64,000 nucleotides of DNA. Source: Bacteroidia bacterium (GTDB lineage Bacteria > Bacteroidota > Bacteroidia > Chitinophagales > JAUHXS01). Where the stretch lies: NCBI GenBank assembly GCA_030426955.1, contig JAUHXS010000001.1:82661-146660 (forward strand), read 5' to 3'. A model generated the notes under the pieces. That model worked only from the letters and a program-made list of their open reading frames with translations, was not told the origin of the DNA and made no database searches. A program made the position numbers and the translations under genes. Below, piece after piece: positions 186-33,573 of this stretch (positions within the stretch are counted from its first letter, which is position 1; the number at the start of each line of letters is the position of its first letter).

Positions 186-998
186 TCATACTTTGATTCT
201 GTGAAGATGTTCTTGCTTTATTGCAACTGTATTGCTACCTATCTGAATGGTTTGGTAATCATGGTTATTCAAATAAGCCTTTATCTCATTGTTTTTATCA
301 GTATCGAAATGATGATGTTCAAAAATGATCATGTTGGGTTTGCTAGTAGCAATATCGAACATTTTAATGACTTCAAAGTCAAACCCTTCTGTATCCATCA
401 TTAAAAGGTCTATTTTTTGTAGATCATATTGAGATAAAAGCGTTTTTGGACTGATGGTTTCAATATTTTCCTCTACAATGTGCTTGGAACTATCCTTGGG
501 TATCTCAATTCCTTCTTCTTGAGATTTGGCTTTTACATAACCCGATTCAAATGCACCTTCTAAGACTTTTTTGTTAAAAGTTGCTAAGCCTGTTGCCCAC
601 CTTGCGTTGCTAAAACCAATTTTGTATAAGCTTGTTTGTGCATCACGTTCTCCAATAGCGGCATTTAGTGTGATAATACCTTTATCTTTTTTGTAAATTC
701 TAGAAAGGTATTTTTCAAATACTTCTCTCTGAGGTTCCAATAATACTCCGTTCCATTTATCTCGCTTGATGAACTTGTGAATGGGGTCATTGTTAATGCC
801 ATCATTGGCACCTACTTGAATTACCGTAAATCCTTTTCCGATACTTTTTGAAAATTGATCAATTATTGCGGAGATGCTTCCTGCTTTCGGTTGATACAAC
901 AGCTTATAAAAACCAATAAATAAGATACTATTATTGGCACTAAGCGAAAAACGAAAATTGCTGTAAAATTTCTTTAAAGCTTGCTTCAACATTTTCAA
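186..998 (-). CDS. FkbM-family SAM-dependent methyltransferase
   Basis: 270-aa ORF. The VIQVGANDGINNDPI SAM-binding stretch and overall layout are typical of FkbM-type methyltransferases. It neighbours a glycosyltransferase and a second methyltransferase. Confidence 0.72.
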   Translation of the reverse strand: MKMLKQALKKFYSNFRFSLSANNSILFIGFYKLLYQPKAGSISAIIDQFSKSIGKGFTVIQVGANDGINNDPIHKFIKRDKWNGVLLEPQREVFEKYLSRIYKKDKGIITLNAAIGERDAQTSLYKIGFSNARWATGLATFNKKVLEGAFESGYVKAKSQEEGIEIPKDSSKHIVEENIETISPKTLLSQYDLQKIDLLMMDTEGFDFEVIKMFDIATSKPNMIIFEHHHFDTDKNNEIKAYLNNHDYQTIQIGSNTVAIKQEHLHRIKV

Positions 999-1058
999 CT
1001 TGTAGAACTTATTTTAAGTTGAATGATAATGATAAAATCGAAGTTACAAACCTTTTTT

Positions 1059-1132
1059 GTCATTTCGAACAAAGTGAGAAATCTCACTTTAAATAACTTT
1101 CAAAGGTAGATTCTTCCTAGCGTCAGAATGAC
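1059..1132. repeat. GTCAT...ATGAC long-hairpin intergenic repeat, full unit (74 nt)
   Basis: Sequence is GTCATTTCGAACAAAGTGAGAAATCTCAC...GGTAGATTCTTCCTAGCGTCAGAATGAC. The two halves are imperfect reverse complements. It lies 57 nt downstream of the stop of the 1189-2121 gene. Confidence 0.8.
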
Positions 1133-1188
1133 AAGCCTTTGAGAAGATTTTATAAAGATCAACCAAGCGTTAATCAATGAAATTGTCA

Positions 1189-2121
1189 TCAATTAAATGA
1201 ACTGACGACGTATCCATGACTGATGGCCAGTTCTTCTTTACTGTGTTTTGCATAATCACGGTGCACTTTTACTTTGCTAAGTTCTTCTATGTTTCCCTCT
1301 CTTATTTGTTCTTCGGTAATAGGTATTTGAAGGTCTTCATATATGACTTTATAATCTTTAAATCGCATTCTATTTTGGGGCTGGATGCTGTTGTCTATCA
1401 TTTTCCATTGTGCCTGGCTAAACTTTAAAAAGTTATATATCGTAATGCTTTTATCAAAGTGTGCAAAGTGATCCGATAGATCTATAAAATGACTCATGAT
1501 ACCATTGGTCTTCAAGACTCTTTTAAATTCTATCAGTATATCTATCAATATATTCTTATGAATATGCTCAAAAGTATTATTTGAGCAGACGAAATCTATA
1601 CTTTGTGATGGTATGTTTGTTTTACGGGCATCTGTTACCAATGTATGTAAGCCAATTATATCTTTAATCTTGTTTAAGTCATAATCCAATGGGTGGTTGA
1701 TAATTTGAATTAGCTGTTCCCATTTATCCTGATTAAAGCTATCCAGGTATTGCGTTAGTAAGCCCTTATTTTTCCACTCTTCTAGCTTTTGTAGTGTTGT
1801 CAGTATATTTTCTTTGTTCAGCCAAAGCTGAATATCAATAGATGTTGTTTGACCTAAGTCCTTTAAATAAAAGCAAATGGGTATGATAGGATACCATCCA
1901 GTTCCTAGTTCCAGTATTTCATTGTCAGTTGCTTTCGCACCATATTTTCTCAAGAAATGAATATGATCTCTGGCATGCTCTAGCTTATATCTCAAATGTT
2001 CATCATCTAAAAAGACGCCCTTGGTGACATATCGTTGAAAAAGATAATTTACTTTGTTACTGTAAGGAAGAAATGAAATGGCTTTTTGAGTAATGGCTTT
2101 AGCCTTCCAAAGTAATGACAT
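1189..2121 (-). CDS. class I SAM-dependent methyltransferase
   Basis: 310-aa ORF. ILELGTGWYP looks like motif I and FVCSNNTFEHI like the post-II region of class I methyltransferases. Confidence 0.6.
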   Translation of the reverse strand: MSLLWKAKAITQKAISFLPYSNKVNYLFQRYVTKGVFLDDEHLRYKLEHARDHIHFLRKYGAKATDNEILELGTGWYPIIPICFYLKDLGQTTSIDIQLWLNKENILTTLQKLEEWKNKGLLTQYLDSFNQDKWEQLIQIINHPLDYDLNKIKDIIGLHTLVTDARKTNIPSQSIDFVCSNNTFEHIHKNILIDILIEFKRVLKTNGIMSHFIDLSDHFAHFDKSITIYNFLKFSQAQWKMIDNSIQPQNRMRFKDYKVIYEDLQIPITEEQIREGNIEELSKVKVHRDYAKHSKEELAISHGYVVSSFN

Positions 2122-4298: not shown

Positions 4299-4817
4299 TT
4301 AAATATAACGTCTAAAGTATAAGTAAATTTTAATCGCTTCGTAAAACTTGCTCATCGGAACATGACCAAGATATTTTAGTTGATTGTCGATGTATTCCTT
4401 TAGTGCATCGTAGTTTTCGTAATAAAACTGAGAAACCTGAAGTATCTTTTCTCCGCCTTTATAGAGATAAAGCACTTCGTAGTCAGCATGCTTTGAAGAT
4501 TGAATAACGGTCTTATAACCATCTAAATCTTTAAAATAAAAGCTTACGGTTTTGAAAAAGTGTTTAAAGTATGGATTCACAATTACCTGTTGCTCATCCA
4601 TAGCCAATTTATTGCCCTTTATTATAAGTTCAAAAAAACCAATGATCAGCATGGAGAAAAAGAGAAGTGATAAGCCAATATATAATAATTGTTGTTTGAT
4701 TTGAGTTTCTCCAGAGTATAAATACAACATCATACTAGTGGCACAAATTGAAAATACAATTAATACACTTGGGGCATAAATTGCCCACTCATATTTTGAG
4801 TTTACTTTAGCAGACAT
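4299..4817 (-). CDS. hypothetical membrane protein (2 predicted TM helices plus a soluble C-terminal domain)
   Basis: The track ORF 4299-5027 overlaps the MATE gene. The internal Met (MSAKVNSKYEWAIY...) at 4815-4817 removes that overlap and forms a TGATG stop/start junction with the upstream gene. Confidence 0.5.
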   Translation of the reverse strand: MSAKVNSKYEWAIYAPSVLIVFSICATSMMLYLYSGETQIKQQLLYIGLSLLFFSMLIIGFFELIIKGNKLAMDEQQVIVNPYFKHFFKTVSFYFKDLDGYKTVIQSSKHADYEVLYLYKGGEKILQVSQFYYENYDALKEYIDNQLKYLGHVPMSKFYEAIKIYLYFRRYI

Positions 4818-6115
4818 CAAGTAAATGTATAAATATATCGCTTTGCTAATATGGTTTGTATAAAACCTCTGGAAATCATAAATCCCTGTAGAGCAATCCA
4901 CAAAGCATGATTCCCAACAAAGGGATGCAGTAAATAAAATAATGGGATAAAAACTAAAAAGGTAGAAATAAACATGACATTTCTCATTGGGACAGATGCG
5001 GTAGTACCAATGTAGACTCCATCCCATATATACGGTGCTACATTAATAACTGATCCAATAACAGTCCAAAAGAGAAATGAATTAGCTAAATCAACAATTT
5101 CTGGTTTGTCCGTGAACAGCCCTAATAGACTTTTTCCTCCTAAACCGTATACTAAGGCATATATCATTCCTAATATCATACCCCAATAAAAAGATTTCTT
5201 GATAGCAAGCTTTAAGTTAAGTAAATCCTTTGCTCCATAGTATTTCCCTACAAGACTCTCTGCTGCATAGGCGAATCCATCAATTCCAAAAGACAAGATC
5301 ATAAATAACTGCAATAATATGGCATTGGCTGCCAGTATTTGATCTCCTAAAGTGGCTGACTTGGCAGTAAAGAAAGAAAAGGCAAAGATGAGGCATAATG
5401 TTCGAAGAAAAATATCTCTGTTTACAGTAAAGAATTTTTTTAATTCGTTCAGTTTATGAAAACGCTCTTTACTCCAGTAACTTAGGTAATGTCTATACGT
5501 TTTGAAAAACAAGACAATTGCTAATGTCAATCCTAGGTATTGTGCACAGACTGTACCTAGTGCAACACCATCAGAAGCCATGTTAAACTGGAATATAAAT
5601 AGTAGGTTGAATAGAACGTTAGCTACATTGATGAATATGGTGATATACATAGGGTATTTGGCATTTTGCATCCCGAGAAACCATCCAAGCATAGCATATA
5701 ATCCGACAGTTGCAGGAGCCGCCCAAATTCTAATGTTATAGTATTCTTTGGCAAGAGCCTCTACCTCTTGACTGCCCTCTAGTATATTAAAACTAATCCA
5801 TTCGATGGGAGATTGCAGTAATAAAACTAATATGCCGCCACATAATGCTACTACAGCTGCTCTACCTAATGAAACAATCACACCTCCATCGTCTTTATTG
5901 CCAAAGCTTTGGGCAACTAAACCTGTTGTGCCCATTCTTAAAAAGCTAAAACCGGAATAAATAAAGCTAAAAATGATACCTCCAAGTGCTATTGCACCAA
6001 TGTAGGCGCTTGATTCCATGTGTCCCATTAAGGCAGTATCCACTGCACCTAATAGCGGCACAGAGAGGTTGCTGATAATATTGGGAATGGCTAGGCGAAG
6101 GAGTTGTTTATTCAT
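4817..6115 (-). CDS. MATE family efflux transporter
   Basis: 432 aa and polytopic. The N-terminus NKQLLRLAIPNIISNLSVPLLGAVDTALMGH is the canonical start of a MatE domain, with a second MatE repeat in the C-terminal half. Confidence 0.85.
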   Translation of the reverse strand: MNKQLLRLAIPNIISNLSVPLLGAVDTALMGHMESSAYIGAIALGGIIFSFIYSGFSFLRMGTTGLVAQSFGNKDDGGVIVSLGRAAVVALCGGILVLLLQSPIEWISFNILEGSQEVEALAKEYYNIRIWAAPATVGLYAMLGWFLGMQNAKYPMYITIFINVANVLFNLLFIFQFNMASDGVALGTVCAQYLGLTLAIVLFFKTYRHYLSYWSKERFHKLNELKKFFTVNRDIFLRTLCLIFAFSFFTAKSATLGDQILAANAILLQLFMILSFGIDGFAYAAESLVGKYYGAKDLLNLKLAIKKSFYWGMILGMIYALVYGLGGKSLLGLFTDKPEIVDLANSFLFWTVIGSVINVAPYIWDGVYIGTTASVPMRNVMFISTFLVFIPLFYLLHPFVGNHALWIALQGFMISRGFIQTILAKRYIYTFT

Positions 6116-14149: not shown

Positions 14150-14182
14150 ATATGATCGTATCTATTTCTTAACCAGGTGAGA

Positions 14183-14190
14183 CAAATATA
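14183..14190 (-). promoter_or_regulatory. candidate -7 promoter box (TATATTTG) for the 11504-14149 gene
   Basis: Exact TAnnTTTG on the minus strand, 33 nt upstream of the ATG at 14149. Confidence 0.4.
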
Positions 14191-14241
14191 CTGGAATTGC
14201 TTATTTGATTCAAGTACAAATTATGGCAATTGTACGGATAA

Positions 14242-14300
14242 GTTGCTATGTCTCGTACTCCTGCCTTGCTGGAGTGCAACGCAGGCAGGTCGGCAGGATA
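14242..14300. repeat. partial right-half repeat carrying the CCTGCC...GGCAGG sub-hairpin module
   Basis: Sequence is GTTGCTATGTCTCGTACTCCTGCCTTGCTGGAGTGCAACGCAGGCAGGTCGGCAGG. The sub-hairpin at 14262-14291 matches 14681-14710 at 25 of 30 positions. Confidence 0.7.
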
Positions 14301-14327
14301 AGGGAGGATGAACTTTATAACGATACT

Positions 14328-14399
14328 GTCATATTGAGCGTAGCGAAAAATCTACCTTTGAGGTAATAGAAAGGTGGATGTCTCTTGCCTCGACATGAC
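14328..14399 (+). repeat. GTCAT...ATGAC repeat, full unit (72 nt, the cleanest copy)
   Basis: Sequence is GTCATATTGAGCGTAGCGAAAAATCTACCTTTGAGGTAATAGAAAGGTGGATGTCTCTTGCCTCGACATGAC. Confidence 0.85.
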
Positions 14400-14422
14400 A
14401 AAGGGTTTAGATTTTTGATTTT

Positions 14423-14588
14423 GCTATATTGATCCGCAACGTACCGTCGTCATGTTCCTACGCTGAAGCTTCAGCACAAGCGTAAGGCTATAGCCGTCGG
14501 AGAATGGCGGAGAAACCCGCCTGACGGCGAGGCAGGTATCTATCTTTTTTGACAACAAGAAGTTAGATGCTTCGTGCCTCAGCATGAC
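14423..14588 (+). repeat. left-half fragment (14423-14448) followed by an expanded full unit (14449-14588) with extra internal palindromes
   Basis: Sequence is GCTATATTGATCCGCAACGTACCGTC, then GTCATGTTCCTACGCTGAAGCTTCAGCACAAGCGTAAGG...CCGTCGGAGAATGGCGGAGAAACCCGCCTGACGGCGAGGCAGGTATCTATC...AGTTAGATGCTTCGTGCCTCAGCATGAC. It contains the perfect palindrome GCTGAAGCTTCAGC. Confidence 0.7.
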
Positions 14589-14616
14589 ATTGAAGGATGG
14601 TTTTGCTAATTATCCT

Positions 14617-14718
14617 GTCATATTGAGCGTAGCGAAATATCTACCTTTGGGGTAATGGTAAGGTAGATGTCTCGTGCCTCTGCCTTGCCGGAGCATAACG
14701 CAGGCAGGTTGACATGAC
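14617..14718 (+). repeat. GTCAT...ATGAC repeat, full unit with a 30-nt nested hairpin insertion (14681-14710)
   Basis: Sequence is GTCATATTGAGCGTAGCGAAATATCTACC...GGTAGATGTCTCGTGCCTC[TGCCTTGCCGGAGCATAACGCAGGCAGGTT]GACATGAC. Without the bracketed segment it matches 14328-14399, 10781-10860 and 11331-11410. Confidence 0.85.
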
Positions 14719-14745
14719 ATAACAAGGTGTGGAATTAATATATGT

Positions 14746-26674: not shown

Positions 26675-26895
26675 TACGGTCTAGTCTTAGGAGATTTTCT
26701 AAATTAATCGGTATTAGTTGTAGGCGCGATTTCTTTTAAGGTTCGTTAAAGAGAGCGTTTAATTTCTTCTATTCACTACTAGCTGCTGCAAATCATTAAC
26801 ATCTTTTCATTAGGAATAGTAAAATGAAAGGATTTTTATCTCTAAAAAAGGCACTGAAATTACTATCATTGATACAACTAATAAAACTTAAACTC

Positions 26896-27012
26896 ATGAA
26901 CAAGATTAAAACAGTAAAAAAGTTAAACTACAAAGAGCTAGTAAAAATAGCGGGTAAAGGTTTAGACCAAATAGGAGCAATTGGCATGTATAATGCTTTA
27001 AAAAAACGATAA
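26896..27012 (+). CDS. small double-glycine-leader peptide, paralog 1 (38 aa)
   Basis: MNKIKTVKKLNYKELVKIAGKGLDQIGAIGMYNALKKR aligns along its whole length with the two following small ORFs. The start is chosen at the internal Met of track ORF 26824-27012 because it aligns with the paralog N-termini. Confidence 0.6.
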   Translation: MNKIKTVKKLNYKELVKIAGKGLDQIGAIGMYNALKKR

Positions 27013-27026
27013 TAAAAATTAAAAGG

Positions 27027-27170
27027 ATGAAACAAAAAACTTTAAAAGTTAAGTTAAATGAGAAACATCTCTTGAAAATAAAGGGAGGTGGACTTGATGA
27101 AGTAGGCATATTAACGATGTTTAATGTTGTCAAGAAAAAGAAACTGAATAAGGCCTTAAGAGGATATTAA
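27027..27170 (+). CDS. small double-glycine-leader peptide, paralog 2 (47 aa)
   Basis: MKQKTLKVKLNEKHLLKIKGGGLDEVGILTMFNVVKKKKLNKALRGY. It is absent from the ORF track (under 60 aa), lies 14 nt after paralog 1, and has an LxxxxLxKIxGG leader. Confidence 0.65.
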   Translation: MKQKTLKVKLNEKHLLKIKGGGLDEVGILTMFNVVKKKKLNKALRGY

Positions 27171-27184
27171 GTGAAATAATTAAA

Positions 27185-27310
27185 ATGAATGATATGAAAA
27201 CGAATACATTAAACAAAATAAAAGCCAAACACCTTTCAAAAATAAAAGGAGGAGGGATTGAAGAAGTCGGAATCTTAACAGCTACGAGAATACCTAAAAA
27301 AAGAGGCTAA
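27185..27310 (+). CDS. small double-glycine-leader peptide, paralog 3 (41 aa)
   Basis: MNDMKTNTLNKIKAKHLSKIKGGGIEEVGILTATRIPKKRG. It is absent from the ORF track and lies 14 nt after paralog 2. An alternative start at Met4 is position 27194. Confidence 0.65.
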   Translation: MNDMKTNTLNKIKAKHLSKIKGGGIEEVGILTATRIPKKRG

Positions 27311-27334
27311 TTCTATCATTGATCATTAAATTGA

Positions 27335-27380
27335 GGGTTTCTGCTATTGATAATTTAGTAGGAGCCCTTTTTGTTTTTTT
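27335..27380 (+). terminator. rho-independent terminator after the small-peptide array
   Basis: GGGTTTCTGCTA (27335-27346) pairs with TAGTAGGAGCCC (27356-27367), a 12-bp stem including 3 G-U pairs and a 9-nt loop. It is followed by TTTTTGTTTTTTTT. Confidence 0.55.
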
Positions 27381-27425
27381 TAGACTAGAAAAGTTGGTTG
27401 AGATCAGAGTATTTGCATGAACTAA

Positions 27426-29773: not shown

Positions 29774-29829
29774 TCAAAGTATTCGCTAAATTTTCTCCCG
29801 TAGTATATTCCGTTTATATTAATAAATAT

Positions 29830-29837
29830 TATATTTG
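29830..29837 (+). promoter_or_regulatory. candidate -7 promoter box (TATATTTG) upstream of tRNA-Gly
   Basis: Exact TAnnTTTG, 114 nt upstream of the tRNA-Gly 5' end. Confidence 0.3.
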
Positions 29838-29854
29838 CATTCCTTGTGAGAATA

Positions 29855-29891
29855 CCTGCCTGCCGGCAGGCAGGGCTCAGCTAAGCTGAGC
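29855..29891. repeat. tandem GC-rich palindromes
   Basis: CCTGCCTGCCGGCAGGCAGG (29855-29874) is a perfect 20-nt palindrome. It is followed directly by GCTCAGCTAAGCTGAGC (7-bp stem). The pair is flanked by AATACC/GGTATT and shares the CCTGCC/GGCAGG motif with the dispersed repeat family. Confidence 0.8.
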
Positions 29892-29951
29892 GGTATTTAA
29901 ATAGGTGTTTTTGCTAGGGACAAGCTAAATATTAATTTAGTTTTATCTACT

Positions 29952-30024
<73 letters not shown>

Positions 30025-30025
30025 C

Positions 30026-30051
30026 AAAAGTCTCAACTATTGAGACTTTTT
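30026..30051 (+). terminator. rho-independent terminator after tRNA-Gly
   Basis: AGTCTCA / TGAGACT 7-bp stem followed by TTTTT. Confidence 0.6.
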
Positions 30052-30094
30052 AATTTATAGGTTAGGTTAATGTCTACTTAGTCTAACTTTTGTT

Positions 30095-30178
30095 GCCCTG
30101 GTGGTGGAACTGGTAGACACGCAGGACTTAAAATCCTGTGGCCATTGCGGCCGTGCGGGTTCAAGTCCCGCCCGGGGT
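30095..30178 (+). tRNA. tRNA-Leu (anticodon TAA), type II with long variable arm
   Basis: Acceptor GCCCTGG/CCGGGGT (two G-U pairs), anticodon loop CTTAAAA, variable arm GGCCATTGCGGCCGT, T arm GCGGG-TTCAAGT-CCCGC. It is 84 nt. Confidence 0.92.
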
Positions 30179-30191
30179 ACTTCTTAAAGTA

Positions 30192-30231
30192 AATCCAAAA
30201 TGAGTCATAGTGCTTGTTTTGGATTTTTTTA
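30192..30231 (+). terminator. rho-independent terminator after tRNA-Leu
   Basis: AATCCAAAA / TTTTGGATT 9-bp stem followed by a run of T. Confidence 0.6.
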
Positions 30232-30261
30232 TTTTGTGAATAAATATTTAGTAATACTGAA

Positions 30262-30639
30262 ATGAATTTAGAAATCAATAAAAGTAATGCCATTAATTTT
30301 TATAAGATGGCGTATAATGGGAACCCCCGCGAAGCCATTAAGCAATATGTTGGGGCTGAATACATCCAGCATAACCCTGATGTTGCAAACGGACCACAGG
30401 GCTTTATTGATTACTTTGAGCGGATGAAAAAAGAATATCCAGATAAATCGATCGAATTTGTAAGATGCATTGCTGAAGGAGATATAGTTGCATTACATAC
30501 ACATCAAATATGGCCAGGCAACGATCAATATGTAACGATGGATTTCTTTAGATTTGATGAAAATGGTAAAATATGTGAACATTGGGACGCCATTCAGCAG
30601 ATACCTGAAGAGTCGGCTAATCCAAATACAATGTATTAG
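30262..30639 (+). CDS. SnoaL-like / NTF2-fold family protein
   Basis: 125 aa. The pattern ...YVGAEYIQHNP...G...F...F...I.EGD.V..H... is typical of SnoaL/NTF2-like proteins. Confidence 0.65.
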   Translation: MNLEINKSNAINFYKMAYNGNPREAIKQYVGAEYIQHNPDVANGPQGFIDYFERMKKEYPDKSIEFVRCIAEGDIVALHTHQIWPGNDQYVTMDFFRFDENGKICEHWDAIQQIPEESANPNTMY

Positions 30640-30688
30640 GTGATAAGTTGTGCCTGTTTTTGTCTTGCATATTTATTATTTTTGTTTT

Positions 30689-30976
30689 ATGCATAGAAGT
30701 GATGTAAATAATAAGATTGTTCAATATTTGAAATCTTTTAACCCTAGTAGAATAGGCATTTTTGGATCATTTGCACGTGGAGACGTCAACTCTTCAAGTG
30801 ATATTGACATCTTGGTTTCTTTTAAAGGTGGTCTAGGGCTTTTGCAGTTGGTTAGAATTGAGAGAGAGCTTTCTAACGTGCTAGGCAAAAAAGTAGACCT
30901 TGTGACTGAGCGGTCCTTGAAAAATGAAAAACTAAAGAAATATATATATAATGATCTTCAAATAATTTTTGAATGA
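30689..30976 (+). CDS. nucleotidyltransferase, MntA-type antitoxin (type VII TA)
   Basis: RIGIFGSFARGDVNSSSDIDILVSF is the GSxxRG...DxD minimal nucleotidyltransferase motif. An ATGA 4-nt overlap links it to the downstream DUF86 gene. The start is taken at the ATG at 30689 rather than the upstream GTG. Confidence 0.8.
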   Translation: MHRSDVNNKIVQYLKSFNPSRIGIFGSFARGDVNSSSDIDILVSFKGGLGLLQLVRIERELSNVLGKKVDLVTERSLKNEKLKKYIYNDLQIIFE

Positions 30977-31306
30977 AAAGAGATGATTCCATATACATAG
31001 ATCATATATTGGAATCTTTAAATAAGATTACTGAATATACGGAAGGATACACTGAGAGTAGTTTTCTTGATTCTAATAAAACACAGGATGCTGTAATTCG
31101 ACAATTGGAAATAATCGGTGAAGCCACAAAAAAGATTTCAAAAGAGTTTAAAGAAAAATATTGCGAAATACCTTGGTCAGATATGGCAGGTATGAGAGAT
31201 AAATTGATTCACGACTTATATTGATGTTGATCTTTGGATTGTTTGGCAAACGGTATCTAAAGATATTCCTGAATTGTTAACAATGATAAAGTCCGTCAAT
31301 CCCTAA
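30973..31306 (+). pseudogene. HepT/DUF86 RNase toxin, frameshifted inside the RX4HXY motif
   Basis: The ORF ends ...GMRDKLIHDLY* at 31224. The +1 frame continues from 31220 as IDVDLWIVWQTVSKDIPELLTMIKSVNP* to 31306. Deleting one T at 31216/31217 restores RDKLIHDYIDVD..., a full-length DUF86 of about 110 aa. Confidence 0.7.
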
Positions 31307-31319
31307 TATTGGTCATGCA

Positions 31320-32183
31320 TTAATCTAGTTGTTTCTGCTTCGGAATATAAGAAGCCATATAGTCAGCAACTAGGGGGAAGTTATTTCTAATTATATGGTC
31401 CATATCATTAGAATTGGAAGGCATAATTACAGTTACCACATCTCCATACAGTAGATCGGCATCTGAATTATAAATAGAAAAATGTACTTTTACTTTTCTT
31501 GTGTACTTGTTATTTGCTCTGTCTAGACATACTTCGTAATCCTTTTTGAGTTCAAATTGATTAATAAAAACAAATAAGTCGGTGCCATATTTTTCATTCA
31601 TAAATTGAAGCATCTCAGGATTCTTGATTGTCGCACTCATGTATTCTTTACTTTCGTTTTCCTCTATGTATTTTCCAGTACCTACACCGCCACTAGCTAA
31701 AATATTGCTGTTTTCATGATCATTGATATGTAATTTATCATTAATCCATTGCTCCACTTTTGTTTCTCTGCTTTTATCACTTTCTTGATGAGTATATTTT
31801 CCTTGTACTTCGTAATGATAAGGTTTGTCAAGTTTGTATGAAATTCCACCGTAAATTGCCTTTAGATCGGCAGCCATGTCGGGGTCTGCTTCATCAGTCA
31901 TAGGCAGCGTATTATACATCGATAAGATTCTTGCATTTACATTAAAGTTTAACCCTTCCTTAAACCATTTACTGATTTCATCCGAACTCTTTTTGTTATA
32001 ATCTGCTAATTCTTTGTCTGAGTCCGAAAAATAAAAGTCTTCATTAAAAGGTACGAGCATTACTTTACTGTAATTGACATACTTGTCCTTTTGAGAACCT
32101 AGAACGGATTCTTCCTGCGCAATAGAACTAGTACAAATTATTGATAAAGAAATAGCTAGGACTGACTTATTGAAACTTTTCAT
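31320..32183 (-). CDS. hypothetical secreted protein
   Basis: The internal Met gives signal peptide MKSFNKSVLAISLSIICTSSIAQ. I recognised no motifs. Confidence 0.45.
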   Translation of the reverse strand: MKSFNKSVLAISLSIICTSSIAQEESVLGSQKDKYVNYSKVMLVPFNEDFYFSDSDKELADYNKKSSDEISKWFKEGLNFNVNARILSMYNTLPMTDEADPDMAADLKAIYGGISYKLDKPYHYEVQGKYTHQESDKSRETKVEQWINDKLHINDHENSNILASGGVGTGKYIEENESKEYMSATIKNPEMLQFMNEKYGTDLFVFINQFELKKDYEVCLDRANNKYTRKVKVHFSIYNSDADLLYGDVVTVIMPSNSNDMDHIIRNNFPLVADYMASYIPKQKQLD

Positions 32184-32296
32184 ATTTGAATGATATTTGA
32201 GACAAACAATACTAATGACTTTAAGTATACTTTGCAACGGTACTTAGTGACAGTAAGCTGTATATAAGTCAAAAATGTATGTAAAATTGAACAATA

Positions 32297-32824
32297 TTAT
32301 TGATAGATGTCTAATAGACCCTTTGGAAGCTTTATGCGTAGTTCTTTTTCTTTGGGTTTGACTTCAAGGATGGTGTGTTCTGTAAGGGGAAGTAAAATCT
32401 CATTGTTTTGATATTGAAGCACAGCAACTTGGTGAGATGGTAAATCCATGATCTCACTGATGATTCCTAGTTCTCCTTTTTTCGTGTCTAAAATTTTAAA
32501 TCCGATATAATCGTCTTCAATTTGTGCCAATCTTTCATTAGTGATCACAGTTTCTTTGTTCAGGAAAATGCCTTTGCCTTTTAAGAGGGCAGCTTCTTCT
32601 TTAGAGTTTACTTCATCTAATTTGAGTAGGGCAAAGTTCTCGTAGGTTAACTCAAACGATTCTACAAAGTAGGGCAGCGGTTTTTCATTGCTTTGAATGA
32701 ATACGGATAAAACATCTTGTGGATTTCCAATAGTGACACCATCTTCAAGAGTTATCTTGAACTGACCTTTAAAGCCATGAGGCTTTCCGATATAGCCAAC
32801 TTTGACTAGATCGTTAGTTACCAT
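32297..32824 (-). CDS. rimM: 16S rRNA processing protein RimM
   Basis: 175 aa. It has a RimM N-terminal domain (VKVGYIGKPHGFKGQFK) plus a PRC-barrel-like C-terminus, and sits directly downstream of rpsP as in most bacteria. Confidence 0.9.
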   Translation of the reverse strand: MVTNDLVKVGYIGKPHGFKGQFKITLEDGVTIGNPQDVLSVFIQSNEKPLPYFVESFELTYENFALLKLDEVNSKEEAALLKGKGIFLNKETVITNERLAQIEDDYIGFKILDTKKGELGIISEIMDLPSHQVAVLQYQNNEILLPLTEHTILEVKPKEKELRIKLPKGLLDIYQ

Positions 32825-32838
32825 GTTTAATGAAGTAG

Positions 32839-33573
32839 TTATTTTTCTTTGGAGGCTTCTTCCTCCTTAACTTCTGCTTTGGGAGTCTCTTCTTTTTCAG
32901 CTTTGGTTTCTTCTTTCGCTTCTACTGGCGCTTCTTCTTTCTTGTTGTCTTCGGGCTTTTCCTCGGCTTTCGGAGTTCCTTCTTTAGCTGCTTCAGCAGG
33001 CTTTTCTTCAGCTTTTGGTTCTTCCTTTACCTCTTCAGCAGGAGCCTCTTCTTTAGCTTCAGGCTGTGCAGGAGCTTCTGCATCTGTAGGTGTCTCAGTA
33101 CTTGCTTCGGCGGCTGGTGCTTCCTCAGGAGCATTTGCCGCTTCTTCTTCTTTTAGCTTTGCTGCCAACTCGTCTGCTTTTTTCTTTGCCGCTTCTTCTT
33201 TCTTTTTCTTTTTAGCTTCTACTTGTTTTGCTGTTCTTGATTCTTTGTCTTTTAACCAAGCCTCAACCAGTTTGTCAACTTCTTCTTCTTTGACGGCACC
33301 TTTTGCAACACCTCTCAATAAGTGTTTTTTGTACAATGCGCCTTTAAATGATAAAATTGCTCTAACCGTTTCTGTTGGCTGGGCTCCTTTTTGTAACCAC
33401 TCAACTGACTTGTCAATATCAACATCTATTTGAGCAGGTACGGTTGTTGGATTGTAAACACCTAGCTTTTCAATATATTTTCCATCTCTTGGAGATCTAA
33501 TGTCTGCAACAACTATCTTGTAAAAAGGTCTTGCTTTACGACCGTGTCTTTGTAATCTTATTCTTGTAGCCAT
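32839..33573 (-). CDS. rpsP: 30S ribosomal protein S16 with a long acidic low-complexity C-terminal extension
   Basis: The N-terminus [42 protein letters not shown] is canonical S16. Residues from about 100 to 244 are K/E/A/P-rich. Confidence 0.92.

What the first reader, a model, noticed from the sequence alone, without database searches (positions are those of the whole stretch)
30689..31306. MntA/HepT type VII toxin-antitoxin pair with the toxin frameshifted exactly in its RX4HXY active-site motif
**What the sequence shows**
- The antitoxin-type nucleotidyltransferase (GSFARGD...DIDILV) is intact.
- It overlaps the DUF86/HepT gene by ATGA, the classic TA operon arrangement.
- The HepT frame reads ...GMRDKLIHDLY* and stops at 31224.
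- The +1 frame continues with IDVDLWIVWQTVSKDIPELLTMIKSVNP*, the expected DUF86 C-terminus.
- Removing one T from the TT at 31216-31217 restores RDKLIHDY-IDVD..., a canonical R-x4-H-x-Y.

**Interpretation**
- In characterised HepT toxins this motif is the RNase active site. Its Tyr is the residue that MntA nucleotidylates.
- The lesion therefore both displaces the Tyr and removes about 28 C-terminal residues.
- Three explanations are possible:
  - a toxin inactivated by selection, leaving an orphan antitoxin
  - a sequencing error, although a TT to T slip is not a long homopolymer
  - a programmed frameshift
- The pair lies in a small island (SnoaL-like, MntA, HepT) directly 3' of two tRNA genes, a typical integration hotspot.
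Basis: partly seen in the sequence, partly recalled or inferred. Interest (0 to 1): 0.55.

Follow-up and report, generated by a model that had tools for sequence, protein, structure and literature searches.

The report
Frameshifted HepT toxin beside intact MntA
This is an ordinary MntA/HepT toxin-antitoxin gene pair in a Bacteroidota chromosome whose toxin gene has been knocked out by a single extra base, a kind of decay that also shows up in roughly one in five related loci.

Summary
mntA (30689-30976) is intact and has the GSX10DXD motif. It overlaps hepT by ATGA. hepT stops at 31224 after ...RDKLIHDLY. The next frame (31217-31306) encodes the missing HepT C-terminus and hits a HepT profile on its own (E 1e-9).

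One extra base within GACTTAT (31214-31217) causes the shift. It may be the C rather than a T, because relatives read GAT-TAY.

The lesion is most likely a real and recent toxin-inactivating mutation:
- An independent Logan assembly of run ERR3420974 carries the same base.
- The site is not a homopolymer.
- I saw no other broken gene in the 64 kb, though I did not screen every gene.
- All eight near-invariant C-terminal positions are still encoded.

The 83-aa form is a singleton. All 119 other top homologues are 106-115 aa. It is therefore not a conserved short variant. No slippery site, RNA structure or conservation supports programmed frameshifting.

Among 58 metagenome loci chosen by MntA similarity, 13 have a broken hepT next to an intact mntA. 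Toxin decay is therefore routine in this family.

The tRNA "island" idea has no support: no integrase, no att repeat and no GC shift. Interest is low.

The parts
30689..30976 (+). mntA: intact minimal nucleotidyltransferase antitoxin gene (95 aa) with the GSX10DXD motif (G26 S27 ... D38 I D40)
   Evidence: PF01909 at E 8.6e-17 and PF18765 at E 9.1e-16. NCBIfam MntA_antitoxin is the best hit at 45.7 bits, below its cutoff of 60. It is 70% and 59% identical to the MntA of the two closest intact pairs.
30973..31224 (+). hepT 5' part as now encoded: an 83-aa truncated product ending RDKLIHDLY*. Its start overlaps the mntA stop (ATGA).
   Evidence: PF01934 positions 1-93 of 120, 73.3 bits. The ORF is listed. 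The same 83-aa product is called on Logan contig ERR3420974_1048416.
31214..31217 (+). Site of the single-base insertion (ACTT inside GACTTAT). The extra base is C31215 or one of T31216/T31217.
   Evidence: DNA alignment with L003 and L004, which read GA-TTAC and GA-TTAT. Not a homopolymer: the longest runs in the gene are A6 at 31128 and A5 at 31154.
31217..31306 (+). hepT 3' remnant in the +1 frame (YIDVDLWIVWQTVSKDIPELLTMIKSVNP*). It encodes the motif Tyr and the last core helix. It has no start codon of its own.
   Evidence: Translation. Profile hit at E 1.1e-9 on its own. All eight invariant or near-invariant C-terminal positions (I83 V85 D86 V90 W91 T93 P99 L101) are retained. The AF2 model places helix 87-106 here.
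30262..30639 (+). SnoaL-like gene between tRNA-Leu and mntA (context only; no shown link to the TA pair)
   Evidence: PF07366 at E 8.5e-15 and PF12680 at E 3.3e-13. It is absent from the contexts of the two closest MntA-HepT pairs.
29952..30180 (+). tRNA-Gly(GCC) at 29952-30025 and tRNA-Leu(TAA) at 30095-30180, upstream of the pair (context)
   Evidence: ARAGORN and Rfam RF00005. No repeat of either tRNA 3' end lies downstream of the TA pair.

Best explanation
The locus is a chromosomal class I MntA/HepT (type VII) toxin-antitoxin module. A real, evolutionarily recent one-base insertion in codons 81-82, inside the RX4HXY motif, has inactivated its RNase toxin gene.

Translation now ends after 83 residues. 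R75 and H80 are kept. The Tyr that MntA would adenylylate is pushed one residue out of register (HDLY instead of HDY). The final 28 residues are lost, including a 20-residue helix that is one of the three long helices of the HEPN bundle. The product is very probably unfolded and non-toxic.

mntA remains intact, so it is now an orphan antitoxin gene.

- **Shown:** gene identities, motifs, the exact lesion, the intact downstream frame, the singleton status of the short form, and the frequency of comparable lesions in relatives.
- **Inferred:** that the lesion is biological rather than a read error, that the truncated protein is inactive, and that the intact ancestor worked like the S. oneidensis system (HepT cleaves mRNA; MntA neutralises it by oligo-AMPylating the Tyr).
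For: **Identity**
- The pair hits PF01909 and PF01934, and the repaired HepT covers positions 1-119 of 120 of the profile.
- R75, H80 and Y82 are invariant in 120 homologues.
- The profile aligns to S. oneidensis HepT R97/H102/Y104 in 5YEP/6M6U.
- The AF2 model has pLDDT 91.4. Its top Foldseek hits are all HepT/HEPN toxins of MntA-HepT crystal structures, with TM 0.64-0.71 and prob 1.00.
- The mechanism of the family is taken from PMC7641770.

**The lesion is probably real**
- A Logan assembly of run ERR3420974, recorded in 2 samples, is 100% identical to the window over 11,098 nt including the extra base.
- The site is not a homopolymer.
- A rough ORF map of the 64-kb window shows about 55 long uninterrupted ORFs. 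The places that looked suspicious in it showed no other frameshift.

**The lesion is recent**
- The out-of-frame C-terminus still carries all eight conserved positions and scores E 1e-9 on its own.

**Not a conserved variant**
- The 83-aa form is a one-member cluster.
- The other 119 top hits are 106-115 aa.

**Base rate in relatives**
- Of 58 metagenome loci picked by MntA similarity that have room for hepT, 13 have a hepT with a nonsense codon, a frameshift or a truncation. All 13 sit next to an uninterrupted mntA with GSX10DXD.
- L160 carries a comparable one-base frameshift just after the motif.
Against: - Only one strain is available. The Logan assembly may derive from the same reads as the deposited genome, so a read-level artefact is not formally excluded.
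- A pristine downstream frame is also exactly what a sequencing error would leave.
- Inactivity of the 83-aa product is inferred from a structure model, not measured.
- Both proteins fall below the NCBIfam equivalog cutoffs (45.7 and 50.5 bits against 60). Functional equivalence to the S. oneidensis system is therefore an extrapolation.
Confidence: 0.75

Rival explanations
1. Sequencing or consensus error: the organism actually has an intact 110-aa hepT, and the extra base is an artefact of the reads or of polishing.
For: - The lesion is a single-base indel.
- The downstream frame is completely undecayed.
- No second strain is available to confirm it. The closest HepT is 73% identical. An exact-pattern scan of metagenome contigs that allowed either allele found nothing.
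Against: - Two assemblies, an NCBI 674-kb contig and a Logan contig from ERR3420974 recorded in 2 samples, agree base for base over 11 kb.
- The context GACTTAT is not a homopolymer.
- I saw no other frameshifted gene in about 58 kb of coding sequence, so the indel error rate is at most about 1 per 60 kb.
- Genuine hepT lesions occur in about 22% of related loci. The prior therefore strongly favours a real mutation.
Confidence: 0.17
2. Programmed +1 ribosomal frameshifting, or transcriptional slippage, restores a full-length toxin at low frequency as a regulatory device.
For: - The two frames overlap so that a +1 shift near UAU-UGA would join them.
- The downstream frame is intact.
Against: - None of the in-frame codons GAC-UUA-UAU-UGA allows P-site tRNA re-pairing in the +1 frame (direct reading).
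- A shift at the stop codon would give HDLY-DVD rather than the invariant HDY-IDVD.
- There is no A/T run of 7 or more at the site for transcriptional slippage.
- There is no significant downstream RNA structure (z = -0.56).
- No homologue shares the frameshift. All 119 other top hits are single full-length ORFs. The broken relatives carry different lesions at different places.
Confidence: 0.02
3. The 83-aa protein is a functional short HepT variant, for example a decoy or dominant-negative subunit or a regulator of mntA, maintained by selection.
For: - It keeps R75 and H80 and the first long helices.
- mntA is retained intact, both here and next to other broken hepT genes.
Against: - It is a singleton with no conserved 83-aa family.
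- It lacks the 87-106 core helix.
- The discarded frame still encodes a perfect C-terminus, which argues that the truncation is too young to have been shaped by selection.
- Lesions in relatives are heterogeneous, not convergent on this form.
Confidence: 0.03

Closest known systems
Shewanella oneidensis HepT/MntA (SO_3166/SO_3165), type VII TA; PDB 5YEP, 6M6U, 7BXO; Yao et al. 2020, PMC7641770
   Same: - Two-gene module with the MNT gene upstream of the HEPN gene.
- GSX10DXD in MntA.
- R-x4-H-x-Y in the repaired HepT, aligning to R97/H102/Y104.
- Same fold by Foldseek.
   Different: - Only about 19% sequence identity.
- The window HepT is shorter: 110 aa repaired, against 133.
- Both proteins fall below the NCBIfam equivalog cutoffs.
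- Here the toxin ORF is frameshifted inside the motif, so no functional toxin is encoded.
Aphanizomenon flos-aquae HEPN/MNT (PDB 7AE2, 7AE6, 7AE8, 7AE9)
   Same: HEPN toxin fold with an AMPylated Tyr next to Rx4H. These structures are among the top structural matches (TM about 0.63-0.66).
   Different: Distant in sequence (18-22% identity). The toxin is intact in that system.
Closest sequence relatives: P0001 (L003, Logan SRR30410469) and P0005 (MBK7128557.1, Crocinitomicaceae MAG, L004)
   Same: - HepT is 73% and 68% identical; MntA is 70% and 59% identical.
- Same overlapping mntA-hepT arrangement.
   Different: - Their hepT is an intact 110-111-aa ORF.
- Their genomic neighbourhoods are unrelated to the window's (no tRNAs, no SnoaL gene), so the module is mobile or shuffled at this evolutionary distance.
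Decayed TA loci and orphan antitoxins (general phenomenon; solo toxins and antitoxins are noted as abundant in Makarova et al. 2009, PMC2701414)
   Same: The antitoxin gene is intact while the toxin gene is broken. I saw this in 13 of 58 MntA-selected metagenome loci.
   Different: The window's lesion is unusually young: a single base, with no secondary decay. The pre-mutation sequence can therefore be reconstructed exactly.

Membership tests
Class I HEPN/MNT (HepT/MntA, type VII TA) as defined by Yao et al. 2020 | Antitoxin is a PF01909 minimal nucleotidyltransferase carrying GSX10DXD | tested here: met
   PF01909 at 61.8 bits against a cutoff of 21. The sequence GSFARGDVNSSSDID fits G-S-x10-D-x-D.
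Class I HEPN/MNT (HepT/MntA, type VII TA) as defined by Yao et al. 2020 | Toxin is a PF01934 (DUF86/HepT-like) protein | tested here: met
   The 83-aa ORF scores 73.3 bits and the repaired 110 aa score 105.7 bits, against a cutoff of 23.5.
Class I HEPN/MNT (HepT/MntA, type VII TA) as defined by Yao et al. 2020 | Toxin ORF carries an intact RX4HXY motif followed by the C-terminal helix | tested here: not met
   As encoded, the ORF reads RDKLIHDLY* (R-x4-H-x-x-Y, then stop). The motif RDKLIHDY, and the rest of the domain, are recovered only after deleting one base. The gene is therefore a pseudogene of a family member, not a functional member.
Class I HEPN/MNT (HepT/MntA, type VII TA) as defined by Yao et al. 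2020 | The two genes are adjacent, with the MNT gene upstream and co-directional | tested here: met
   There is a 4-nt ATGA overlap at 30973-30976. The closest relatives have the same arrangement.
Class I HEPN/MNT (HepT/MntA, type VII TA) as defined by Yao et al. 2020 | HEPN fold resembling solved HepT structures | tested here: met
   The AF2 model of the repaired protein has pLDDT 91.4. The best 13 Foldseek PDB hits are HepT or HEPN toxins, with prob 0.98-1.00 and TMq 0.63-0.71.
Class I HEPN/MNT (HepT/MntA, type VII TA) as defined by Yao et al. 2020 | HepT is growth-inhibitory (RNase), and MntA neutralises it by oligo-AMPylating the Tyr | not testable with these tools
   This needs expression and toxicity assays and mass spectrometry.
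NCBIfam equivalogs NF047752 (MntA_antitoxin) and NF047751 (HepT_toxin) | Score at or above the curated cutoff (60 bits) | tested here: not met
   MntA scores 45.7 bits, repaired HepT 50.5 bits and the 83-aa ORF 31 bits. These are the best hits but fall below the cutoff.
Programmed +1 frameshift genes (prfB-type) | Slippery codon allowing P-site re-pairing, a stimulatory element, and conservation of the shift among homologues | tested here: not met
   No re-pairing codon in GAC-UUA-UAU-UGA. RNA fold z = -0.56. None of the other 119 listed homologues is truncated; all are 106-115 aa.
tRNA-linked genomic island | Integrase gene, direct repeat of the tRNA 3' end at the far border, compositional deviation, and an empty site in relatives | tested here: not met
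   No integrase ORF lies between 30180 and 32300. No tRNA-derived direct repeat. GC is 32-34% against 35.7% for the window. The empty-site test is impossible because no syntenic relative was found.

The most novel reading that the evidence does not exclude
The one-base insertion is not a dead end. It is decoded at low efficiency by +1 ribosomal frameshifting at UAU-UGA, or the 83-aa fragment acts as a decoy subunit. Either way the cell would keep a tunable trace of HepT activity under MntA control.
Probability: 0.02. Interest if true: 0.6.

Novelty: new member of a known kind. Interest (0 to 1): 0.12.

Why it matters
It matters little beyond annotation. The locus should be annotated as an mntA gene plus a hepT pseudogene, not as a short "DUF86 protein".

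It has one practical use. Only one base separates the native sequence from an intact toxin, so the native and repaired alleles make a clean natural pair for testing whether the C-terminal helix and the register of the Tyr are needed for HepT toxicity and AMPylation.

The side observation is that about one in five hepT genes next to an intact mntA are broken in metagenomes. This could feed into the broader question of why antitoxins outlive their toxins. It rests on a small, quickly classified sample.

Tried and rejected
- **Orthologous locus in relatives:** a RimM-based scan of GTDB representative genomes found no relative. A TrpRS-based scan found 80 loci, all 71% identical or less. By tblastn, none shares synteny with the tRNA/SnoaL/MntA/HepT/RimM region. 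No empty-site or allele comparison is therefore possible.\n- **Either allele in metagenomes:** an exact DNA pattern spanning the site, with N{1,2} to catch both alleles, returned 0 hits in JGI metagenome contigs.\n- **Provenance:** a literature search for the run accession ERR3420974 returned 0 papers. The sample type and sequencing platform remain unknown.\n- **Conserved neighbour:** the 305-aa downstream gene was compared with the 300-aa gene downstream of the Crocinitomicaceae pair. There was no similarity (E 1.7), so the adjacency is not conserved.\n- **RNA features:** an Rfam scan of the window returned only the two tRNAs. Folding 31205-31300 gave no significant structure.\n- **Island signatures:** direct and inverted repeats around 29800-32400 were only short chance-level matches. 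The GC profile is unremarkable.\n- **Split gene:** I rejected this because the +1 frame has no ATG, GTG or TTG before the conserved block, and no ORF is listed there.\n- **Alternative genetic code for broken relatives:** I rejected this because the in-frame stops are a mix of TAA, TAG and TGA replacing different residues.

Full report
**1. What is in the sequence**

Window 30689-30976 (+) is a 95-aa ORF. It hits the minimal nucleotidyltransferase families PF01909 (E 8.6e-17) and PF18765 (E 9.1e-16). It reads GIFGSFARGDVNSSSDIDILV, so it carries the GSX10DXD motif that Yao et al. 2020 (PMC7641770) define for MntA antitoxins.

Its stop overlaps the ATG of the next ORF (ATGA at 30973-30976). That ORF, 30973-31224, gives 83 aa ending GMRDKLIHDLY*. 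It matches the HepT-like family PF01934 over profile positions 1-93 of 120 (73.3 bits).

The +1 frame from 31217 to 31306 reads YIDVDLWIVWQTVSKDIPELLTMIKSVNP*. Deleting one base gives a 110-aa protein that matches PF01934 over positions 1-119 of 120 (105.7 bits).

The out-of-frame fragment is not a chance open frame. When all six-frame segments of the window are searched with a profile of 120 close homologues, it scores E 1.1e-9 on its own. The window holds no other MntA or HepT gene.

**2. The lesion**

In an alignment of the repaired protein with 119 homologues, R75, H80 and Y82 are invariant. The consensus GMRDKLIHDYIDVDLWIVW of the closest subfamily is reproduced exactly.

At the DNA level the two nearest relatives read CAY-GAT-TAY-RTY-GAT. 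The window reads CAC-GAC-TTA-TAT-TGA.

The context is not a homopolymer. The longest runs in the gene are A6 and A5, 60-90 nt upstream.

All eight invariant or near-invariant positions downstream of the shift (I83, V85, D86, V90, W91, T93, P99, L101) are still encoded in the discarded frame. The event is therefore either very recent or artefactual.

**3. Real or artefact**

- The 83-aa product occurs in the protein collection as a one-member cluster, from an NCBI genome (674-kb contig) and from a Logan assembly.
- The Logan contig (run ERR3420974, 29.5 kb, recorded in 2 samples) is 100% identical to the window over 11,098 nt, including the extra base. At least two assembly procedures therefore agree.
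- A rough ORF map of the window shows about 55 long uninterrupted ORFs, up to 1173 aa. The three places that looked suspicious in that map showed no frameshift. They were an ORF overlap at 4299-6115, a 596-nt gap at 14150-14745 and a 751-nt gap at 26675-27425.. This was not a gene-by-gene screen.
- On that basis the assembly's indel error rate is at most about one per 60 kb.

I could not inspect reads, and I do not know whether the two assemblies use the same reads. A read-level error therefore keeps a minority probability (0.17).

**4. Is the short form conserved or recoded?**

It is not conserved. The other 119 best homologues are all 106-115 aa, and the nearest is only 73% identical. No family of 83-aa forms exists.

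Nothing supports programmed frameshifting:
- None of the codons GAC-UUA-UAU-UGA allows +1 re-pairing.
- A shift at the stop codon would give HDLYDVD instead of the invariant HDYIDVD.
- There is no A/T run at the site for transcriptional slippage.
- The downstream RNA folds no better than shuffles (z = -0.56).
- No homologue shares the shift.

The C-terminal fragment cannot be a separate gene, because no start codon precedes the conserved block.

**5. What the lesion does (inferred)**

The profile of the subfamily aligns to S. oneidensis HepT, so that window R75/H80/Y82 correspond to R97/H102/Y104 (PDB 5YEP, 6M6U). In that system Y104 receives three AMPs from MntA. The Y104A substitution leaves toxicity intact but prevents neutralisation (PMC7641770). 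Moving the Tyr one residue out of register would therefore not by itself detoxify the protein.

An AlphaFold2 model of the repaired protein (pLDDT 91.4, pTM 0.85) has long helices at 5-22, 35-53 and 87-106. Its best 13 PDB matches are HepT or HEPN toxins from MntA-HepT and MNT-HEPN crystal structures (prob 0.98-1.00, TM 0.63-0.71). The frameshift removes helix 87-106 entirely. I therefore infer that the 83-aa product cannot form the HEPN bundle and is inactive.

**6. How unusual this is**

I fetched 80 metagenome loci by similarity to MntA only, so the sample is not biased by the state of hepT. I then searched their six-frame translations with the HepT profile. The classification was quick and by hand.

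Of 58 loci with room for hepT and a detectable hepT:
- 45 have a single full-length ORF.
- 13 have a broken hepT.
- Two further loci (L112, L126) are ambiguous and are not counted among the 58.

The 13 broken genes fall into these groups:
- Nonsense codons: L091 (Glu to TAA), L095 (Arg to TGA), L117 (Trp to TGA), L110 and L151 (TAA).
- Several lesions: L090.
- Frameshifts: L119, L125 and L160. L160 has lost one G of a GG relative to L151, just after the motif.
- 3' truncations: L085, L109, L113, L140.

In all of them mntA is an uninterrupted ORF with GSX10DXD. The lesions are scattered along the gene, so the position inside RX4HXY in the window is most simply a coincidence.

A broken toxin next to an intact antitoxin is thus routine in this family. 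This agrees with the abundance of solo antitoxins noted by Makarova et al. 2009 (PMC2701414). The base rate also makes a real mutation a far better prior than a sequencing error.

**7. The "island" idea**

tRNA-Gly(GCC) and tRNA-Leu(TAA) do lie just upstream. However:
- There is no integrase.
- There is no repeat of a tRNA 3' end beyond the pair.
- GC is 32-34%, against 35.7% for the whole window.
- The closest MntA-HepT pairs sit in unrelated neighbourhoods.
- No syntenic relative was found in GTDB representative genomes.

The module is clearly mobile over evolutionary time. Integration at these tRNAs is not shown. The only weak hint is that the Logan contig ends inside tRNA-Leu (window 30127). 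That could equally reflect a multicopy tRNA gene.

**8. Verdict**

This is an MntA/HepT type VII toxin-antitoxin module whose toxin gene is a very young pseudogene caused by a single-base insertion (confidence 0.75).

The rivals are:
- sequencing error (0.17);
- a functional short variant (0.03);
- programmed frameshifting (0.02).

The pair meets the Pfam and motif definition of class I HEPN/MNT modules, except that the toxin ORF as encoded lacks an intact RX4HXY and C-terminus. It falls below the NCBIfam equivalog cutoffs.

It is a new, decayed member of a well-known kind. Interest is low (0.12).

Noticed in passing
L085, L090, L091, L095, L109, L110, L113, L117, L119, L125, L140, L151, L160 (metagenome loci): Of 58 loci retrieved by MntA similarity, 13 carry a hepT broken by a nonsense codon, a frameshift or a truncation. 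Each sits next to an uninterrupted mntA with GSX10DXD. Three related loci (L140, L151, L160) each carry a different lesion. This suggests that toxin loss with antitoxin retention is recurrent in this family. The reciprocal control (broken mntA next to intact hepT) was not done.
   Followed up: partly
window 26824-27310 (+): Three tandem small ORFs (62, 47 and 41 aa) lie in a very AT-rich stretch (GC 27-29%). The second and third share ...KHL(L/S)KIKGGG(L/I)(D/E)EVGILT..., and the first is looser (KIAGKGLDQIGAIG). They look like double-glycine-leader peptide precursors. Only weak NCBIfam hits were found: ComC at E 0.002 and a bacteriocin-like peptide at E 0.05.
   Followed up: partly
window 14248-14717: A 596-nt non-coding gap contains a composite direct repeat. 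One part is 102 nt (14290-14391 and 14579-14680, 80% identical). The other is 51 nt (14248-14298 and 14667-14717, 80%). There is no Rfam match. It could be a small repeated element or an uncatalogued RNA.
   Followed up: partly
window 29855-29874: A perfect 20-nt GC-rich palindrome, CCTGCCTGCCGGCAGGCAGG, lies about 80 nt upstream of tRNA-Gly. It is unique in the window, with 0 matches expected by chance. It may be a terminator or operator-like hairpin between the response-regulator gene and the tRNA genes.
   Followed up: no
window 30127 (inside tRNA-Leu 30095-30180): The independent Logan contig of ERR3420974 ends exactly inside the tRNA-Leu gene. This could reflect a multicopy tRNA gene or strain-level variation at this junction.
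   Followed up: no
window 32839-33573 (-): The ribosomal protein S16 homologue is 244 aa long. It has a long Lys/Glu/Ala/Pro-rich low-complexity C-terminal extension.
   Followed up: no
L085 440-679 and L112 3300-3577: In two unrelated metagenome loci, hepT homology ends right after GMRDV, within the Rx4H motif. In L085 a convergent 174-aa gene (696-1220, minus strand) lies in the place of the missing hepT 3' end. L112 is too close to its contig end to judge.
   Followed up: partly
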